The notes: generated from the sequence alone by a model not told the origin. Shown: positions 43,611 to 53,811, counted from the stretch's first letter. The stretch: 64,000 nt of DNA from a virus (IMGVR_UViG_3300020477_001012:1-64000), one strand, 5' to 3'. Translations and numbers: made by a program.

Positions 43611-43796
43611 ATGGAAATTGGAGATGAGGTTCTTACACATCAAGAGGAACGTGGGGTTATCTTGAAACCTTGGGATCGAGATGACGACCAGTACAATTGG
43701 TGGGTAGAGATTCACTTCACCGCTGATGGAAAAGAATACACGTCTGTTATCCCGTATAAGGAGTCAGAATTAAAGGTTGAAAACTTCCACCGATAA
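43611..43796 (+). CDS. Small SH3-like protein, leaderless
   Basis: ATG lies 7 nt after TATAAT (43598); its 3' end overlaps RNA A3. Confidence 0.6.
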   Translation: MEIGDEVLTHQEERGVILKPWDRDDDQYNWWVEIHFTADGKEYTSVIPYKESELKVENFHR

Positions 43797-43842
43797 AGTT
43801 GAGTTACGGTTCTCATGCGAGGTGGAAGGACGAGCAAAACCG
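43784..43842 (+). ncRNA. Family-A small RNA, copy A3
   Basis: P1 CTTCCACC/GGTGGAAG, P2 TGAG/CTCA, pseudoknot CGGTT/AACCG; ends 5 nt before tRNA-Ile. Confidence 0.75.
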
Positions 43843-43847
43843 AGCAT

Positions 43848-43920
43848 GGGGTTGTAGCTCAGTGGTTAGAGCGCCGTTCTTATAAAGCGGTAGTCGCGGG
43901 TTCGATTCCCGCCAACCCTA
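43848..43920 (+). tRNA. tRNA-Ile(TAT)
   Basis: Cloverleaf; anticodon arm CCGTT-CTTATAA-AGCGG; A73. Confidence 0.85.
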
Positions 43921-43922
43921 CT

Positions 43923-43988
43923 CTGTCGCCGGTAAAGTTGAGTTTTATTCGGTTCTCAAGCGAGGTCACAGTCGTTCCAAAACCGAAT
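43923..43988 (+). ncRNA. Family-A small RNA, copy A4
   Basis: Starts 2 nt after the tRNA discriminator; P1 CTGTCGCC/GGTCACAG (one mismatch), pseudoknot ATTCGGTT/AACCGAAT. Confidence 0.75.
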
Positions 43989-44010
43989 CTTTTAATTTTC
44001 ATTTTATTTA

Positions 44011-44069
44011 CTACGCCAATAAAGGTGAGCTGGCGCCTCAACCGTAGGCGTCAGAATAGACAAGCGCCA
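44011..44069 (+). ncRNA. Family-A small RNA, copy A5 (divergent)
   Basis: AATAAAG-GTGAG...CTCA; P1 ACGCC/GGCGT; pseudoknot fully swapped to TGGCGC/GCGCCA; segment GCGTCAG-AATAGAC. Confidence 0.65.
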
Positions 44070-44086
44070 TTTTTTTAAAGGGATTT

Positions 44087-45355
44087 ATGATGAGGATAAA
44101 GGTTAAGCGTAATGCGAAGTTAATCGGATTAGATACACGAGAGATTGATGAAGACCACAAAAGGACGATCCAGTTGTGTAGACGTGTCTCAAAGTATATT
44201 AGAAAAGAAATAGTGGATGGGAATATTGTTGAGATCAATAAGCGGGTTATCTACAAAGATGGAACATCCTTAGACAATACCGCATTTAAAAACAAAGTCA
44301 GTCACCTGTTTGACGACGATGCTCATGCAGAGTCTCTTAGGAGAAATTCTGTAATCTATGTCATGGAGAGATATGCCGGATATATCAGTCGGAACGGACT
44401 GGATAGATTTCTAAAAATCAAATCACCCATCTCTATCAAGGATACCTCTTTTTATTTTAAAGACAACTTCAATAAGATAGATAAAGAGAATAAAATCCTG
44501 TACGTAAAAACAATGTTCACGGGGGACAGGGAATACAGGAAGGTTCCTTATAAGTATGTGCTTAAAGGAGATAAAATTTCAGAGGATAAGAAACATGGTG
44601 GCAATTTAACTTTTCCTCGCAAAAAGAACAAGGCAAAAACATATGTGATCGCTGTTGACTACGAGAGGGAACCTGCATACGAACCTGAAAAATTGATTGG
44701 GTTTGATCTTAATAAAGATAAGAAATCTTGGATAGTTCTTGACGATGGGCAAAGAATCACTCCAAATCAACAAATACAAGACTCCACAGAGAACATCCGT
44801 GTTTTAAATACAACTCTGGACAAGGATAAGAAGGCTCCTATTGATAAGAGAAGCCTTAGAAGCAAGGATAGGAGACCTATTAGGTTGAAGTGGAAGAAAG
44901 CTCATAGTAAACTAAAAGCTGAGATAAGCAAGGTGGCTGAGACTGTCGTGAATAAGGCTAGAGATGAGAAAGCACTGCTGTGTATTGACAGTGTTACAAC
45001 TGGGCAGAAAAATGGCACATTTGGTCAAGATCATTTAATCGAGACGCTTCAAGTAATGTGTGAGAACCAAGGTGTTCCATTCTATGTCGTACCATGCAAA
45101 AATACATCTCGTAGATGTTCATCTTGCGGGTATATCGCTAAGGGTAACAGGGTAAACACAGACGAATTCCATTGTGAAGATTGTGGTCATAAGTGTGACG
45201 CACAAAATAATGGTGCAAAAAATATTGTCTTTCAAGGTCAGAGAATGTATAATGCGGGTGTCCCCTATGGGAATTATAGAAGACGCGCAGTAGACACTCT
45301 GGTAAAAGAATACTCTCAACAAGAAAGTTCAGTTGATACCTCTGAGGCGAGTTGA
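44087..45355 (+). CDS. TnpB/Cas12f-like protein, probably nuclease-dead
   Basis: RuvC-I IGFDLN; RuvC-II LCIDSV (usual Glu is Asp); NTSRRCSSCG...FHCEDCG Zn finger; RuvC-III DAQNNGAKNI (usual Asp is Gln). No transposase gene nearby. Confidence 0.85.
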   Translation: MMRIKVKRNAKLIGLDTREIDEDHKRTIQLCRRVSKYIRKEIVDGNIVEINKRVIYKDGTSLDNTAFKNKVSHLFDDDAHAESLRRNSVIYVMERYAGYISRNGLDRFLKIKSPISIKDTSFYFKDNFNKIDKENKILYVKTMFTGDREYRKVPYKYVLKGDKISEDKKHGGNLTFPRKKNKAKTYVIAVDYEREPAYEPEKLIGFDLNKDKKSWIVLDDGQRITPNQQIQDSTENIRVLNTTLDKDKKAPIDKRSLRSKDRRPIRLKWKKAHSKLKAEISKVAETVVNKARDEKALLCIDSVTTGQKNGTFGQDHLIETLQVMCENQGVPFYVVPCKNTSRRCSSCGYIAKGNRVNTDEFHCEDCGHKCDAQNNGAKNIVFQGQRMYNAGVPYGNYRRRAVDTLVKEYSQQESSVDTSEAS

Positions 45356-45374
45356 GAGAGTACACAAAGGTATA

Positions 45375-45436
45375 CTGCCACTAATTAAGCTGAGTTACAG
45401 GGTTCTTACGCGAGGTGGCAGAAAGGCCAAAACCCT
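45375..45436 (+). ncRNA. Family-A small RNA, copy A6
   Basis: P1 CTGCCACT/GGTGGCAG, P2 TGAG/CTTA, pseudoknot AGGGTT/AACCCT; ends 4 nt before tRNA-Leu. Confidence 0.75.
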
Positions 45437-51912: not shown

Positions 51913-52038
51913 TGAATATCATAGAACCATTTCCGCCCATGATCGACGCTTGTGATTGGTGCGGAGTCTTCAAATGTGTATCATATGTTGATGAACATTA
52001 CATTTGTTACGATTGTACAAGTAGCTTAGAGGATAACA

Positions 52039-52455
52039 ATGAAACTCTATGCAATAATTTGGATAACTAAGTTTGGCAAACTTTATGCTATGGAGCCAGT
52101 AGCGATCTACAAGGATATGGAAACCGCCCTAGAGTACGTGCTGAAACTAGAGCAAGCATGGAATAAGCTAGGAAACGATAAATACGAAGAAGCAACATTT
52201 GATATTATTGACTTTCAAATGGACGAGGAACCTTATCTCTTGACTTACTTTACCAAGATGGAAGAAAAAATTAATGACACCAGAGACCACCACCTATCCA
52301 AACTAATGAAAGACGGAATGGTGGAGCAGCTCGTAGGAGATGATGGTTATTTTTATTACGAACTAACAGAGAAGGGCGAGAAATTAGCAAAGAAGAAAGC
52401 GTTATTTCCGCAGCATGTCAAAGATTGGAAAAGATTCTTTGGCAAGGGTAAATAA
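52039..52455 (+). CDS. Hypothetical protein
   Basis: GAGGA RBS; C-terminal winged-helix-like YELTEKG. Confidence 0.6.
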   Translation: MKLYAIIWITKFGKLYAMEPVAIYKDMETALEYVLKLEQAWNKLGNDKYEEATFDIIDFQMDEEPYLLTYFTKMEEKINDTRDHHLSKLMKDGMVEQLVGDDGYFYYELTEKGEKLAKKKALFPQHVKDWKRFFGKGK

Positions 52456-52460
52456 TACTT

Positions 52461-52532
52461 GGCCCTGTAGTTAAACGGATATAACAAGGGTCTTCTAAAC
52501 CCTAATTCGGGGTTCGATTCCTCGCGGGGCTA
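52461..52532 (+). tRNA. tRNA-Arg(TCT)
   Basis: Cloverleaf; anticodon arm AGGGT-CTTCTAA-ACCCT. Confidence 0.9.
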
Positions 52533-52732
52533 CTAATGGTAGATAAAGTCAAATGTCCTTGTGGCAAAGAAATCTCGTACAAGGATAGTTATAGATGTAG
52601 AATATGTTTTACTCATTATTGCTCCGAGTGTTCGTTAGATCATTTCGGTCTGTATGAAAAAAATGGACACGTCCAATATAAGAATATTTTTAAAACTATG
52701 TACTGGCTTTTTAGAAAAAGGATTTTTGGAAG

Positions 52733-53203
52733 ATGAGAATAGGAATTGTATCTGGTTATTTTAACCCATTACACACAGGACACCTAGACTACATCGAGGA
52801 AGCTAAGGCACATTGTGAATATTTATATGTTATTGTAAACAGTGACCTCCAAGTCAAACTGAAGCAGAGCAGGGAGTTCTTAGATGAGGCGTCTCGCGTT
52901 AGAATTATTGACGCATTACGCGATGTCTACAAGGCTGTCCTATCCGTAGACAAAGATGGGACGGTTGTTAAAACGATTAAGAGTATCTACGAAGAGAATT
53001 ACAACGACCCATTTGTTTCCGGTTTCTGTTTTATGAATGGAGGAGACAGAAAGGCTGGCAATACGCCGGAGTCAGATTTTTGCGAGAAGAACCAAATCAG
53101 ACTAATATATAATGTAGGGGGAGTTAAGACACAGTCGTCAAGTTCCCTTTTAGAGAAGACGAGGATTAATGAGGGGATTAATTGGATAGCGCCTGCGAGT
53201 TAG
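52733..53203 (+). CDS. Cytidylyltransferase-family (HxGH) nucleotidyltransferase
   Basis: SGYFNPLHTGH, VNSD, NGGDR, KTQSSS. Confidence 0.85.
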   Translation: MRIGIVSGYFNPLHTGHLDYIEEAKAHCEYLYVIVNSDLQVKLKQSREFLDEASRVRIIDALRDVYKAVLSVDKDGTVVKTIKSIYEENYNDPFVSGFCFMNGGDRKAGNTPESDFCEKNQIRLIYNVGGVKTQSSSSLLEKTRINEGINWIAPAS

Positions 53204-53286
53204 ACATGGCAGTTTGTCTGCCTAAACATGTAGATGTTGTTGTGGATACATCACTGGACGGGGGTTCGATTCCCCCCACCTCCACT

Positions 53287-53344
53287 CTGTGTCAAGAAAG
53301 TTGGGTCAGGGTTCCCAGACGAGAACACAGGCGTCTCAAAACCC
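53287..53344 (+). ncRNA. Family-A small RNA, copy A7 (in the tmRNA intervening segment)
   Basis: P1 CTGTGT/ACACAG, P2 TGGG/CCCA, pseudoknot GGGTT/AACCC. Confidence 0.75.
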
Positions 53345-53348
53345 ATTA

Positions 53349-53407
53349 CTTCGCCCGATAAAGTTGGGTCAGGGTTCCCAAACGAGGGTGATGCCGTGAC
53401 AAAACCC
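53349..53407 (+). ncRNA. Family-A small RNA, copy A8 (in the tmRNA intervening segment)
   Basis: P1 TCGCCC/GGGTGA, P2 TGGG/CCCA, pseudoknot GGGTT/AACCC; ends 4 nt before the tmRNA 5' G. Confidence 0.75.
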
Positions 53408-53811
53408 AAATGGGGGTGAACGGATTCGACAGGTTGTAAGAAGTGACAACTGCATGTGGTAGTTGGTCTATGGCTACCTAAAAATAGACCGAACAATAAG
53501 TGCAAAACCTAGTTTTGCTTTAGCCGCTTAATCGCGTCTACGGGGGGTTGCCCGCCCTTGTTACCCAAACGGGCTTTTAATTTAACTTAACACATGAGAA
53601 TGGAATGAAATTCACGCAGCAGAGAATCAACAGTATTAACTATGGGATCAGGAGGCGGCAGCGAGGGTTGGCAGTATGGCACCGAGGGGGAAACAAACTC
53701 ACCCTAGCACAATATCACGCAATCAAGGAAATCAATGCACTCAAGGATGAATTGGAGGAACTGACTGGGTCGAGGGTTGTAACAGACCCGAAGTGGCCTA
53801 TTTAAAGGATC

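What the first reader, a model, noticed from the sequence alone, without database searches (positions are those of the whole stretch)
43784..53412. tRNA-punctuated release of small RNAs
Seen: copies A3, A6 and A8 end 4-5 nt before a tRNA/tmRNA 5' end. A4 and A7 start exactly 2 nt (CT) after a discriminator base. All four tRNAs and the tmRNA have CT rather than CCA after the discriminator. The pair at 35942 has no tRNA and instead has its own promoter and T-run. Inference: host RNase P and 3' endonucleases cut the RNAs out, a natural analogue of engineered tRNA-gRNA arrays. Alternatively, the RNAs process the tRNAs, as theta ribozymes do.
Basis: partly seen in the sequence, partly recalled or inferred. 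Interest (0 to 1): 0.75.

Follow-up and report, generated by a model that had tools for sequence, protein, structure and literature searches.

The report
Phage small RNAs interleaved with tRNAs
A marine T4-like phage carries nine copies of a new ~60-base knotted small RNA, tied to a domesticated TnpB/Cas12f-like gene, and slots several of them directly against tRNA genes and inside its split tmRNA gene, so that ordinary tRNA maturation must cut those copies free.

Summary
Three copies end 4-5 nt before a tRNA or tmRNA 5' end. Two start 2 nt after a discriminator base. All five acceptor 3' ends are followed by CT, not CCA. One pair has its own promoter and T-run.

The copies form an uncatalogued ~60-nt RNA family (58 distinct units in about 15 phage contigs). 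It folds as a three-helix pseudoknot with strong covariation. The family always lies beside a TnpB/Cas12f-fold gene, with one copy across that gene's stop codon in four lineages. The protein's RuvC-III aspartate is Gln or His throughout its close family.

Unit-tRNA abutment, with gaps of 1-9 nt, recurs in five phage lineages and involves Ile, Arg, Leu and Asn tRNAs. Release by RNase P and tRNA 3' trimming is therefore very likely for those ends. It covers only 5 of the 18 unit ends here. The rest are set by transcription starts, T-runs, or unit-unit junctions of 0-5 nt that need another activity.

The theta-ribozyme alternative fails most defining features, and many units are stand-alone promoter-unit-terminator cassettes. 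No 3' guide exists, so calling them "gRNAs" is unproven. A 6-nt segment inside the fold is hypervariable in the way a spacer is. Other first-stage notes on this genome flagged the same RNAs, and two notes on other phages describe unrelated-looking pseudoknots in tRNA arrays. No RNA-end data could be obtained.

The parts
35908..35935 (+). Sigma-70-type early promoter (TTGACA-16-TATAAT) driving the A1-A2 pair
   Evidence: One search gives 12 of 12 matches. The first helix of A1 starts 8 nt after the -10 element.
35943..36004 (+). Unit A1 (P1a to P2b)
   Evidence: CM R2 match, 50 bits, E 1.6e-9. Parsed.
36010..36078 (+). Unit A2 plus a run of seven T (36072-36078)
   Evidence: CM R2 match, 55.5 bits. 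Sequence read.
43576..43603 (+). Promoter-like site ahead of the small ORF, A3, tRNA-Ile, A4 and A5
   Evidence: TTGACT-16-TATAAT, 11 of 12 matches.
43784..43842 (+). Unit A3. It ends 5 nt (AGCAU) before the tRNA-Ile 5' end.
   Evidence: CM R2 match, 72.5 bits. Sequence read.
43848..43920 (+). tRNA-Ile(UAU). Discriminator A43920 is followed by CT.
43923..43985 (+). Unit A4. It starts 2 nt after the tRNA-Ile discriminator.
   Evidence: CM R2 match, 59.8 bits. Sequence read.
44010..44076 (+). Unit A5 (diverged) plus a T-run, 15 nt upstream of the TnpB-like start codon
   Evidence: CM R2 match, 42.2 bits..
44087..45355 (+). TnpB/Cas12f-fold protein of 422 aa. RuvC-I D207, RuvC-II position D301, RuvC-III Asp replaced by Gln.
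45313..45373 (+). Unit A0, lying across the stop codon (45353-45355) of the TnpB-like ORF
   Evidence: CM R2 match, 52.6 bits. The same arrangement occurs in L007, L008, L009, L010, L013 and L036.
45375..45435 (+). Unit A6, 1 nt after A0. It ends 5 nt (UAAAU) before tRNA-Leu.
   Evidence: CM R2 match, 66.4 bits. Sequence read.
45441..45525 (+). tRNA-Leu(UAA). The discriminator is followed by CT.
52461..52532 (+). tRNA-Arg(UCU) with no adjacent unit but the same CT trailer
53226..53284 (+). Permuted tmRNA, acceptor/T-arm (3') piece. Discriminator A53284 is followed by CT.
   Evidence: Rfam RF04321, 91 bits. ARAGORN. Sequence read.
53287..53344 (+). Unit A7, inside the tmRNA intervening segment
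   Evidence: CM R2 match, 55.8 bits. Sequence read.
53349..53407 (+). Unit A8, inside the tmRNA intervening segment. It ends 4 nt (AAAU) before the tmRNA 5' piece.
   Evidence: CM R2 match, 61.7 bits. Sequence read.
53412..53622 (+). Permuted tmRNA, 5' acceptor strand plus the coding piece (tag AKPSFALAA)

Best explanation
The repeated elements are genes for a new family of ~60-nt small RNAs.

The fold:
- Each RNA folds as a hairpin. It has an 8-bp helix P1 that starts with C-U, an internal loop AAYAAA/GA, and a 6-bp helix Px with one bulged base.
- The hairpin loop pairs with the 3' tail (helix P2, 5-6 bp), which makes an H-type pseudoknot.
- A 6-nt linker and an invariant CAA lie between P1 and P2.

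The protein partner: the RNAs belong with a domesticated, transposase-less TnpB/Cas12f-fold protein. One copy overlaps that gene's 3' end, as an omegaRNA does. They are most likely its RNA partners.

How the phage transcribes them, from early sigma-70-type promoters, in three formats:
- stand-alone promoter-unit-T-run cassettes;
- tandem arrays;
- passengers in tRNA and tmRNA precursors.

In the third format the host's own tRNA maturation sets the unit ends:
- RNase P cuts at the 5' end of the downstream tRNA or tmRNA piece. This leaves the unit with a 4-5-nt tail.
- Cleavage and trimming of the CU trailer behind the upstream tRNA leaves the unit with 0-2 extra 5' nucleotides.
- The two units in the tmRNA gene occupy the intervening segment, which has to be excised anyway.

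Shown: the fold, the gene linkage, the junction geometry and its conservation. Inferred: co-transcription, the identity of the nucleases, binding to the protein, and what the RNP does.
For: Fold:
- On an alignment made by a sequence-only model (58 distinct units), 96.2% of cells pair. The figure is 37-46% when partners are slid.
- 16 of 19 pairs change on both sides, and 0 of 500 shuffles reach the observed values.

Family and linkage:
- There are exactly nine copies in the genome, all co-directional and within 17.5 kb around the TnpB-like gene.
- Units flank every homologue of the gene that was fetched. The match is strong in seven lineages and weak (E about 0.002) in L015 and L017.
- A copy lies across the stop codon in four lineages.
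- The protein has a full TnpB/Cas12f fold (pLDDT 89; Foldseek probability 1.0 against Cas12f, TnpB and TranC).
- The genome holds no Y1 transposase.

Junctions:
- Gaps are 4-5 nt before tRNA-Ile, tRNA-Leu and the tmRNA, with U at -1, and 2 nt after tRNA-Ile and the tmRNA acceptor piece.
- The same tight abutment occurs in L009, L010/L022, L013, L018/L025 and L049, with Ile, Arg and Asn tRNAs.
- No neighbour gap falls between 10 and 59 nt.
- The tmRNA intervening segment is 127 nt here but about 13 nt in relative L043. The difference equals two units.

Units as primary small RNAs:
- The pattern TATAAT-N7-CU occurs upstream of A1, L013 3667 and L049 9875.
- T-runs follow directly after P2.
Against:
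- Only 5 of 18 unit ends in this phage are tRNA-defined. Unit-unit junctions of 0-5 nt need another nuclease or stay uncut.
- Stand-alone cassettes show that tRNAs are not required for expression.
- No unit carries a 3' guide, and the 13-nt variable segments match the phage genome only at chance level. A guide role is therefore unsupported.
- Protein-RNA binding rests on gene linkage alone.
- The reverse association (units without the gene) could not be tested, because the other contigs are 4-37% fragments.
Confidence: 0.6

Rival explanations
1. The units are self-cleaving ribozymes, either theta/HDV-like or a new class. They cut at the 5' edge of P1. This would trim the tRNA 3' trailers and chop the tandem arrays into monomers.
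For: - P1 lies at the extreme 5' end of a knotted fold.
- An invariant C-A-A precedes the last helix strand, where HDV-like ribozymes place the catalytic C (motif as described in PMC10879173).
- C-U at +1/+2 is nearly invariant.
- Unit-unit junctions of 0-5 nt need some cleavage activity.
- A4 and A7 start 2 nt after a tRNA-type 3' end, within the +/-5 nt window used to define tRNA-associated theta ribozymes.
Against: - No Rfam ribozyme family matches, even at E<=10.
- Position +1 is C paired to G, not the G of a G-U wobble.
- The segment where P3/L3 should lie pairs instead with an upstream strand (Px, 98.8% paired, five covarying pairs).
- The bases after P1b, where P1.1 and P4 should lie, carry no information.
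- Several units are stand-alone cassettes whose predicted transcription start is 1-3 nt before P1, so cleavage there would have no purpose.
- Units also sit upstream of tRNAs, where RNase P does the cutting.
- tRNA-Arg and tRNA-Asp have the same CU trailer without any unit.
Confidence: 0.1
2. The units are tRNA-slot RNAs that act independently of the TnpB-like protein. They might be acceptor-arm mimics recognised by tRNA enzymes, decoys against host tRNA-targeting defences, or antitoxin-like array RNAs. On this view the neighbouring gene is a passenger.
For: - Px (6 bp) stacked on P2 (5-6 bp) gives an 11-12-bp helix with a short 3' tail. That is the size of an acceptor/T-arm minihelix (geometry inferred).
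- Units and tRNAs substitute for one another in mixed arrays. In L036 a unit is followed by the stump of a deleted tRNA-Ile.
- Other notes of this scan (e1-5680009, e1-5667294) report different pseudoknots in the tRNA arrays of lake phages (unchecked leads).
Against: - The 3' tails are AGCAU, UAAAU, AAAU or U-runs, not NCCA.
- The gap from P2 to the next unit varies from 0 to 5 nt.
- Every fetched TnpB-like homologue has units beside it, and a copy straddles its stop codon.
- ARAGORN and the Rfam tRNA model do not call the units.
Confidence: 0.12
3. The abutment is incidental. Units and tRNA genes are both short non-coding cassettes that pile up in the same recombination-prone early region. 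Processing by tRNA enzymes happens but was not selected for.
For: - Arrays are dynamic. Unit number and order differ between close relatives (L007 versus L008; L013 versus L036), and a unit replaced part of a tRNA in L036.
- Most units (about 80%) have no tRNA neighbour.
Against: - Spacing is narrow and similar for four different tRNAs and the tmRNA in five lineages.
- No neighbour gaps of intermediate size occur.
- The insertion into the tmRNA intervening segment uses the one place in that gene that is excised anyway.
- U is kept at -1 of each downstream tRNA.
Confidence: 0.15

Closest known systems
Engineered polycistronic tRNA-gRNA arrays (PTG; Xie et al. 2015, from my own knowledge; tRNA-processing multiplex designs are also discussed in PMC13370227)
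   Same: Small structured RNAs alternate with tRNAs on one transcript. RNase P and tRNA 3' processing define their ends.
   Different: This case is natural and lies in a phage. Only a minority of junctions use a tRNA. The RNAs have no 3' guide, and their protein partner has an altered RuvC site. A tmRNA intervening segment is also used.
Bacteriophage T4 tRNA gene cluster with its two co-transcribed small stable RNAs of unknown function (species 1 and 2, also called RNA C and D; from my own knowledge, not checked here)
   Same: In a T4-type phage, non-tRNA small RNAs are embedded in a tRNA precursor and released by host tRNA-processing enzymes.
   Different: This RNA is a repeated ~60-nt pseudoknot family linked to a TnpB-like gene. 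No sequence relation to the T4 RNAs was tested.
Theta ribozymes, minimal HDV-like ribozymes next to phage tRNAs (PMC10879173)
   Same: A short knotted RNA lies within a few nt of a phage tRNA 3' end. P1 is at the 5' edge. An unpaired C-A-A precedes the last helix strand.
   Different: There is no G+1 or G-U pair, no P3/L3 hairpin and no P1.1. A conserved J1/2 strand pairs to form Px. Units occur upstream of tRNAs and as stand-alone genes. The phages are marine T4-like, not gut phages. No Rfam match was found.
TnpB omegaRNA and TldR guide RNAs (PMC10705468, PMC13622181)
   Same: The RNA is encoded on the gene's strand and overlaps its 3' end. The core contains a pseudoknot. The protein is a TnpB homologue with a lost catalytic Asp and no transposase, and it is phage-borne, like fliC-TldR.
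   Different: The scaffold is ~60 nt rather than ~100-150 nt. There are many dispersed and tandem copies per genome. There is no 3' guide; the only free-varying part is a 6-nt internal segment. RuvC-I Asp and an Asp at the RuvC-II position stay invariant, and the C-terminus is not truncated.
TranC, and phage TnpB scaffolds fused to mini-CRISPR arrays (PDB 9jfo/9jfq appear among the fold matches; scan notes e1-1959752 and e1-5657071)
   Same: A phage-borne TnpB-family protein is accompanied by a repeated RNA array.
   Different: Here there is no repeat-spacer array with 25-40-nt spacers. The repeat is itself the whole folded RNA.

Membership tests
tRNA-punctuated small-RNA polycistron (PTG-like; T4 tRNA-cluster RNAs) | The small RNA abuts a tRNA on the same strand, with no room for a promoter or terminator between them | tested here: met
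   Gaps are 4-5 nt (A3, A6, A8) and 2 nt (A4, A7). Gaps of 1-9 nt occur in five lineages.
tRNA-punctuated small-RNA polycistron (PTG-like; T4 tRNA-cluster RNAs) | The mature ends are made by RNase P and by tRNA 3' processing | not testable with these tools
The only indirect support is U at -1 of each downstream tRNA and a conserved CU trailer.
HDV-like / theta ribozyme | G at +1 forms a G-U wobble that closes P1 | tested here: not met
   +1 is C in 49 of 49 units and pairs with G.
HDV-like / theta ribozyme | A local P3 hairpin with L3, and a P1.1 helix formed by the two bases after P1b | tested here: not met
   That segment pairs with an upstream strand (Px, 98.8% paired). The bases after P1b carry about 0 bits.
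HDV-like / theta ribozyme | An unpaired catalytic C in J4/2, just before P2b | tested here: inconclusive
   An invariant C-A-A sits at that place (57 of 57 units), but no catalytic role has been shown.
HDV-like / theta ribozyme | A match to curated ribozyme models | tested here: not met
   No Rfam 15 family other than tRNA and tmRNA matches the units, at the gathering threshold or at E<=10.
TnpB omegaRNA / TldR guide RNA | Encoded on the gene's strand and overlapping the 3' end of the tnpB-like ORF | tested here: met
   A0 at 45313-45373 spans the stop codon at 45353-45355. The same holds in L007/L008, L009, L010 and L013/L036.
TnpB omegaRNA / TldR guide RNA | A free 3' guide of at least 9 nt directly after the scaffold | tested here: not met
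   P2b is followed by a T-run, by a tRNA after 4-5 nt, or by the next unit after 0-5 nt.
TnpB omegaRNA / TldR guide RNA | A partner protein with the TnpB/Cas12f fold | tested here: met
   Pfam PF07282 at 1e-13. Full-length Foldseek matches to Cas12f and TnpB at probability 1.0.
Active TnpB nuclease | The RuvC D-E-D triad | tested here: not met
   D207 is invariant. D301 stands at the Glu position. The third Asp aligns to Q or H in all 90 close-family members (of 97) where the motif could be parsed, while distant hits keep D.
IS200/IS605 transposon | A TnpA Y1 transposase in the genome | tested here: not met
   PF01797 is absent from the 173.8-kb genome, while the control genomes give hits.
CRISPR array | Short identical repeats separated by unique spacers of roughly 25-40 nt | tested here: not met
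   The period is about 62 nt. Of that, about 56 nt is the folded repeat and only 6 nt varies freely.
Type III antitoxin RNA (ToxI-like) | A tandem array of near-identical ~36-nt repeats next to a ToxN-type endoribonuclease gene | not tested
   The neighbouring gene has a TnpB fold, not a ToxN fold. No search for ToxN was made.

The most novel reading that the evidence does not exclude
The units are the programmable RNAs of a new TnpB-derived system. Its specificity element is not a 3' guide but a 6-nt internal cassette, together with one bulged base, displayed between two helices of the fold. On this reading the tandem arrays are CRISPR-like arrays with 6-nt 'spacers' inside the repeat. tRNA and tmRNA maturation would then be the phage's natural way of multiplexing their release.
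Probability: 0.25. Interest if true: 0.9.

Novelty: new variant of a known kind. Interest (0 to 1): 0.7.

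Why it matters
If RNA-end mapping confirms it, this would be a natural version of the tRNA-gRNA polycistron that genome engineers designed. It would also be a use of the tmRNA intervening segment as a carrier for other RNAs that I found no report of.

The RNAs themselves may matter more. They are a compact, strongly covarying pseudoknot family tied to a TnpB/Cas12f-fold protein that has lost its third catalytic Asp but keeps the other two acidic residues. They occur in multiple copies per genome and have a hypervariable 6-nt segment. 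None of this fits the known omegaRNA, TldR or CRISPR formats. It therefore marks another domestication of TnpB, this time in abundant marine T4-like phages, with a recognition logic still to be found.

Tried and rejected
No end mapping was possible.
- Known RNA families: Rfam gave only tRNA and tmRNA, at the gathering threshold and at E<=10.
- Close phage records: blastn against INPHARED matched only the tRNA-Leu. The search for related loci with the protein in IMG/VR found nothing.
- Internal-guide test: the nine 13-nt variable segments, on both strands and with up to 2 mismatches, hit the 173.8-kb genome at chance level and never perfectly.
- A further pairing for the 6-nt segment: mutual information found no partner column for it. 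The same scan did reveal the extra Px pair, columns 21-44.
- Ancestral omegaRNA: loci of two distant relatives that keep the catalytic Asp (L051, L052) hold no unit by CM search with filters off.
- Co-occurrence in the reverse direction: contigs that have units but no gene are 4-14% fragments, so they are uninformative.
- Thermodynamics: nested MFE folds recover P1+Px in 7 of 9 units, but z-scores (-2.7 to +0.4) are unremarkable. The case rests on covariation.
- My first structural scan demanded pairing, which made it circular. I replaced it with an alignment from a sequence-only model, although that model's seed alignment came largely from the pairing-filtered units.
- A literature search for the T4 small stable RNAs gave nothing usable.

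Full report
**Setting.** The window is the first 64 kb of a 173,842-bp IMG/VR virus record that CheckV rates as complete. The phage is T4-like. An rIIA-like ATPase and rIIB lie at 38799-41940. Repeated TTGACA-16/17-TATAAT early promoters are present. The TnpB-like protein's relatives come mostly from Tara Oceans and other marine metagenomes.

**The observation.**
- ARAGORN and Rfam agree on four tRNAs and a permuted (two-piece) tmRNA.
  - A3, A6 and A8 stop 4-5 nt before a tRNA or tmRNA 5' end, and U is at -1 each time.
  - A4 and A7 begin 2 nt (CT) after a discriminator base.
  - C-T follows the discriminator of all four tRNAs and of the tmRNA acceptor piece.
  - A1/A2 sit behind a perfect promoter and end in a T-run.
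- A ninth copy (A0, 45313-45373) lies across the stop codon of the ORF at 44087-45355.
- A covariance model finds exactly these nine copies in the whole genome, all on the + strand.

**What the repeats are.**
- I collected relatives through the neighbouring protein and through DNA patterns in IMG/VR.
- A sequence-only model, which uses no pairing information for aligning hits, recovered 60 matches (58 distinct) in about 15 phage contigs, always on the strand of the TnpB-like gene where that gene is present. Its seed alignment, however, came largely from units that a pairing-requiring script had picked.
- On that alignment a three-helix structure is paired in 96.2% of cells, against 37-46% when partners are slid by 1-3 columns. 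Changes on both sides occur at 16 of 19 pairs, and 0 of 500 shuffles reach the observed values.
- The fold, in order 5' to 3':
  - P1, 8 bp. It starts with a nearly invariant C-U and closes with A-G.
  - An internal loop, AAYAAA opposite GA.
  - Px, 6 bp with one bulged base. Two of its pairs were found by mutual information and pair in 100% of cells.
  - A U-rich turn.
  - P2, 5-6 bp, formed between the hairpin loop and the 3' tail. P2 crosses P1 and Px, which makes an H-type pseudoknot.
  - Between P1 and P2 lie a 6-nt segment and an invariant C-A-A.
- No Rfam 15 family matches, even at E<=10.

**The neighbouring gene.**
- The 422-aa product matches the Cas12f1-like TNB domain (1e-13) and NCBIfam guided_TnpB, the latter below its cut-off.
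- Its AlphaFold model (pLDDT 89) aligns over its full length to Cas12f, TnpB, TranC and Fanzor structures at probability 1.0.
- In a 22-member alignment the RuvC-I Asp (D207) is invariant, and an Asp (D301) stands where TnpB has Glu.
- HMMER aligns the family's "...AQxNAAxNI" to the "...ADxNAAxNI" of Cas12f, so the third catalytic Asp is Gln here.
- In a search of 1.84 billion representatives, all 90 of the 97 closest proteins in which the motif could be parsed carry Q or H at that position. More distant hits carry AD, RD or SD.
- The genome has no Y1 transposase.
- This is therefore a domesticated TnpB clade with a modified, probably inactive, RuvC site.
- Units flank the gene in all nine lineages examined. 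The match is weak (E about 0.002) for the two most divergent, L015 and L017. In four lineages (window/L007/L008/L009, L010, L013/L036) one unit straddles the stop codon, as an omegaRNA would.
- A 57-kb fragment (the record that contains L036) has 12 units around the gene.

**Is release punctuated by tRNAs?**
- In five lineages, units abut tRNAs with 1-9-nt gaps by ARAGORN coordinates:
  - behind tRNA-Ile in the window, L009 and L013;
  - behind tRNA-Arg in L010/L022 and L018/L025;
  - ahead of tRNA-Ile in the window and L009;
  - ahead of tRNA-Leu in the window, tRNA-Arg in L009, and tRNA-Asn in L049.
- No neighbour gap lies between 10 and 59 nt.
- The tmRNA intervening segment is 127 nt here (CU, A7, AUUA, A8, AAAU) but about 13 nt in relative L043. 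Two units were therefore inserted into the one part of that gene that must be excised anyway.
- Because these junctions leave no room for a promoter or terminator, maturation of the tRNA or tmRNA necessarily frees the adjacent unit end.
- That RNase P makes the 3' ends follows from its established role at tRNA and tmRNA 5' ends. Which enzyme removes the CU trailer (RNase Z, RNase E or exonucleases) is inferred, and the host is unknown.

**Limits of that reading.** Of the 18 unit ends in this phage:
- 5 are set by a tRNA or tmRNA;
- 1 by a transcription start (A1);
- 2 by T-runs (A2, A5);
- 2 lie inside mRNA (the 5' ends of A3 and A0);
- 8 are unit-unit junctions.

In relatives, tandem arrays with a 62-nt period and 0-5-nt linkers contain no tRNA. 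Some other activity must cut there: the TnpB-like protein, a host endonuclease, or the RNA itself. Otherwise the RNAs act as multimers.

**Units as independent genes.** Several units are complete genes in their own right.
- TATAAT-N7-CU precedes A1, L013 3667 and L049 9875. The spacing is N9-N10 at L007 3921 and L047.
- T-runs follow P2 directly.
- The unit is thus itself the product. It does not require tRNAs, and its natural 5' end lies about 1-3 nt before P1.

**The ribozyme alternative.**
- For theta/HDV-like ribozymes the defining features are taken from PMC10879173 and from general knowledge of the HDV fold.
- The units share three features: a 5'-terminal P1, a P1/P2 crossing, and an unpaired C-A-A before the last strand.
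- They lack the others: G+1 with a G-U pair, a local P3/L3 hairpin, and P1.1. The place of P1.1 and P4 carries no information.
- Stand-alone cassettes, units upstream of tRNAs, and tRNAs with the same CU trailer but no unit all argue that tRNA maturation does not depend on the units.
- A new class of self-cleaver cannot be excluded by computation. I give it 0.1.

**Are they guide RNAs?**
- The link to the gene is strong, but no unit has a 3' guide.
- The first 7-8 nt of the "variable 13-14 nt" noted by first readers are simply the 3' strand of P1 and covary with the 5' strand.
- What remains is a 6-nt segment of fixed length, plus one bulged base.
- These positions behave unusually:
  - Twelve unit pairs that differ at 24 of 629 other positions differ at 50 of 72 cassette positions.
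  - Tandem neighbours in L007 differ at 1 of 52 other positions but at 6 of 6 cassette positions.
  - Orthologous units of L013 and L036 differ at 23 of 36 cassette positions, against 20 of 326 elsewhere in the unit and 39 of 134 fourfold-degenerate sites of the adjacent gene.
- A pure linker would explain the fixed length but not divergence above the synonymous rate in otherwise homogenised repeats. This points to diversifying selection, as for a specificity element.
- I found no target. The 13-nt segments match the phage genome only at chance level, and the host is unknown. This remains the main unexplained feature.

**Comparison with known systems.**
- The punctuation resembles engineered tRNA-gRNA arrays and the T4 tRNA cluster with its two small stable RNAs (both from my own knowledge).
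- The protein-RNA pair resembles TnpB/omegaRNA and the nuclease-dead TldR systems, of which three clades (fliC, csrA, oppF) have been described (PMC13622181; PMC10705468).
- It differs in four ways: the ~60-nt scaffold, the many copies, the lack of a 3' guide, and the retention of two invariant acidic RuvC residues.
- My literature searches found no description of this clade or RNA.

**Verdict.**
- The tRNA-punctuation reading is right for the junctions it concerns and is conserved, but it is one of several release modes.
- The theta-ribozyme reading is not supported.
- The underlying RNA-protein system is the more novel object.

Noticed in passing
All units, e.g. window 43827-43832 (A3) and 45420-45425 (A6); also L007:5358-5481: A 6-nt segment between P1b and the invariant CAA, plus one bulged base in Px, is hypervariable. 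It differs at 50 of 72 sites in unit pairs that differ at only 24 of 629 other sites. The arrays therefore look like a 56-nt repeat with a 6-nt 'spacer'.
   Followed up: partly
window 53285-53411, compared with L043:400-760: The intervening segment of the phage's permuted tmRNA is 127 nt here and consists almost entirely of two units. In a related phage it is about 13 nt.
   Followed up: yes
window 31571-31572, 43921-43922, 45526-45527, 52533-52534, 53285-53286: Every tRNA gene and the tmRNA acceptor piece is followed by C-U instead of CCA. Relatives L009, L010 and L013 show the same (L043 does not). This may be a conserved 3'-processing signal.
   Followed up: partly
window 44010-44090; L007:3921-4003; L009:2633-2713; L010:3908-4003; L018:3912-4003: A unit followed by a T-run sits 15-30 nt upstream of the TnpB-like start codon in five lineages. 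No promoter lies between them. This may be an attenuator or an autoregulatory site.
   Followed up: no
L036:2259-2345: A unit is followed by what looks like the 3' end of a deleted tRNA-Ile (the same ...ccttccagtcctact as the intact gene in L013). This shows turnover between units and tRNAs.
   Followed up: no
L052:4270-4330: The 3' flank of a distant relative that keeps the catalytic Asp holds AAAGCTAAGTTTGG, which resembles the J1-Pxa-turn motif of the units. No full unit is present. It may be a trace of the ancestral omegaRNA.
   Followed up: no
window 47554-48567, 52733-53203, 53812-54351: Auxiliary genes lie between the RNA clusters: a GAPDH-like dehydrogenase, a cytidylyltransferase-like protein and a dCMP deaminase.
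   Followed up: no
window 45225-45253: A promoter-like site (TTGTCT-17-TATAAT) lies inside the 3' part of the TnpB-like ORF, about 60 nt upstream of unit A0. It could drive A0-A6-tRNA-Leu independently.
   Followed up: no
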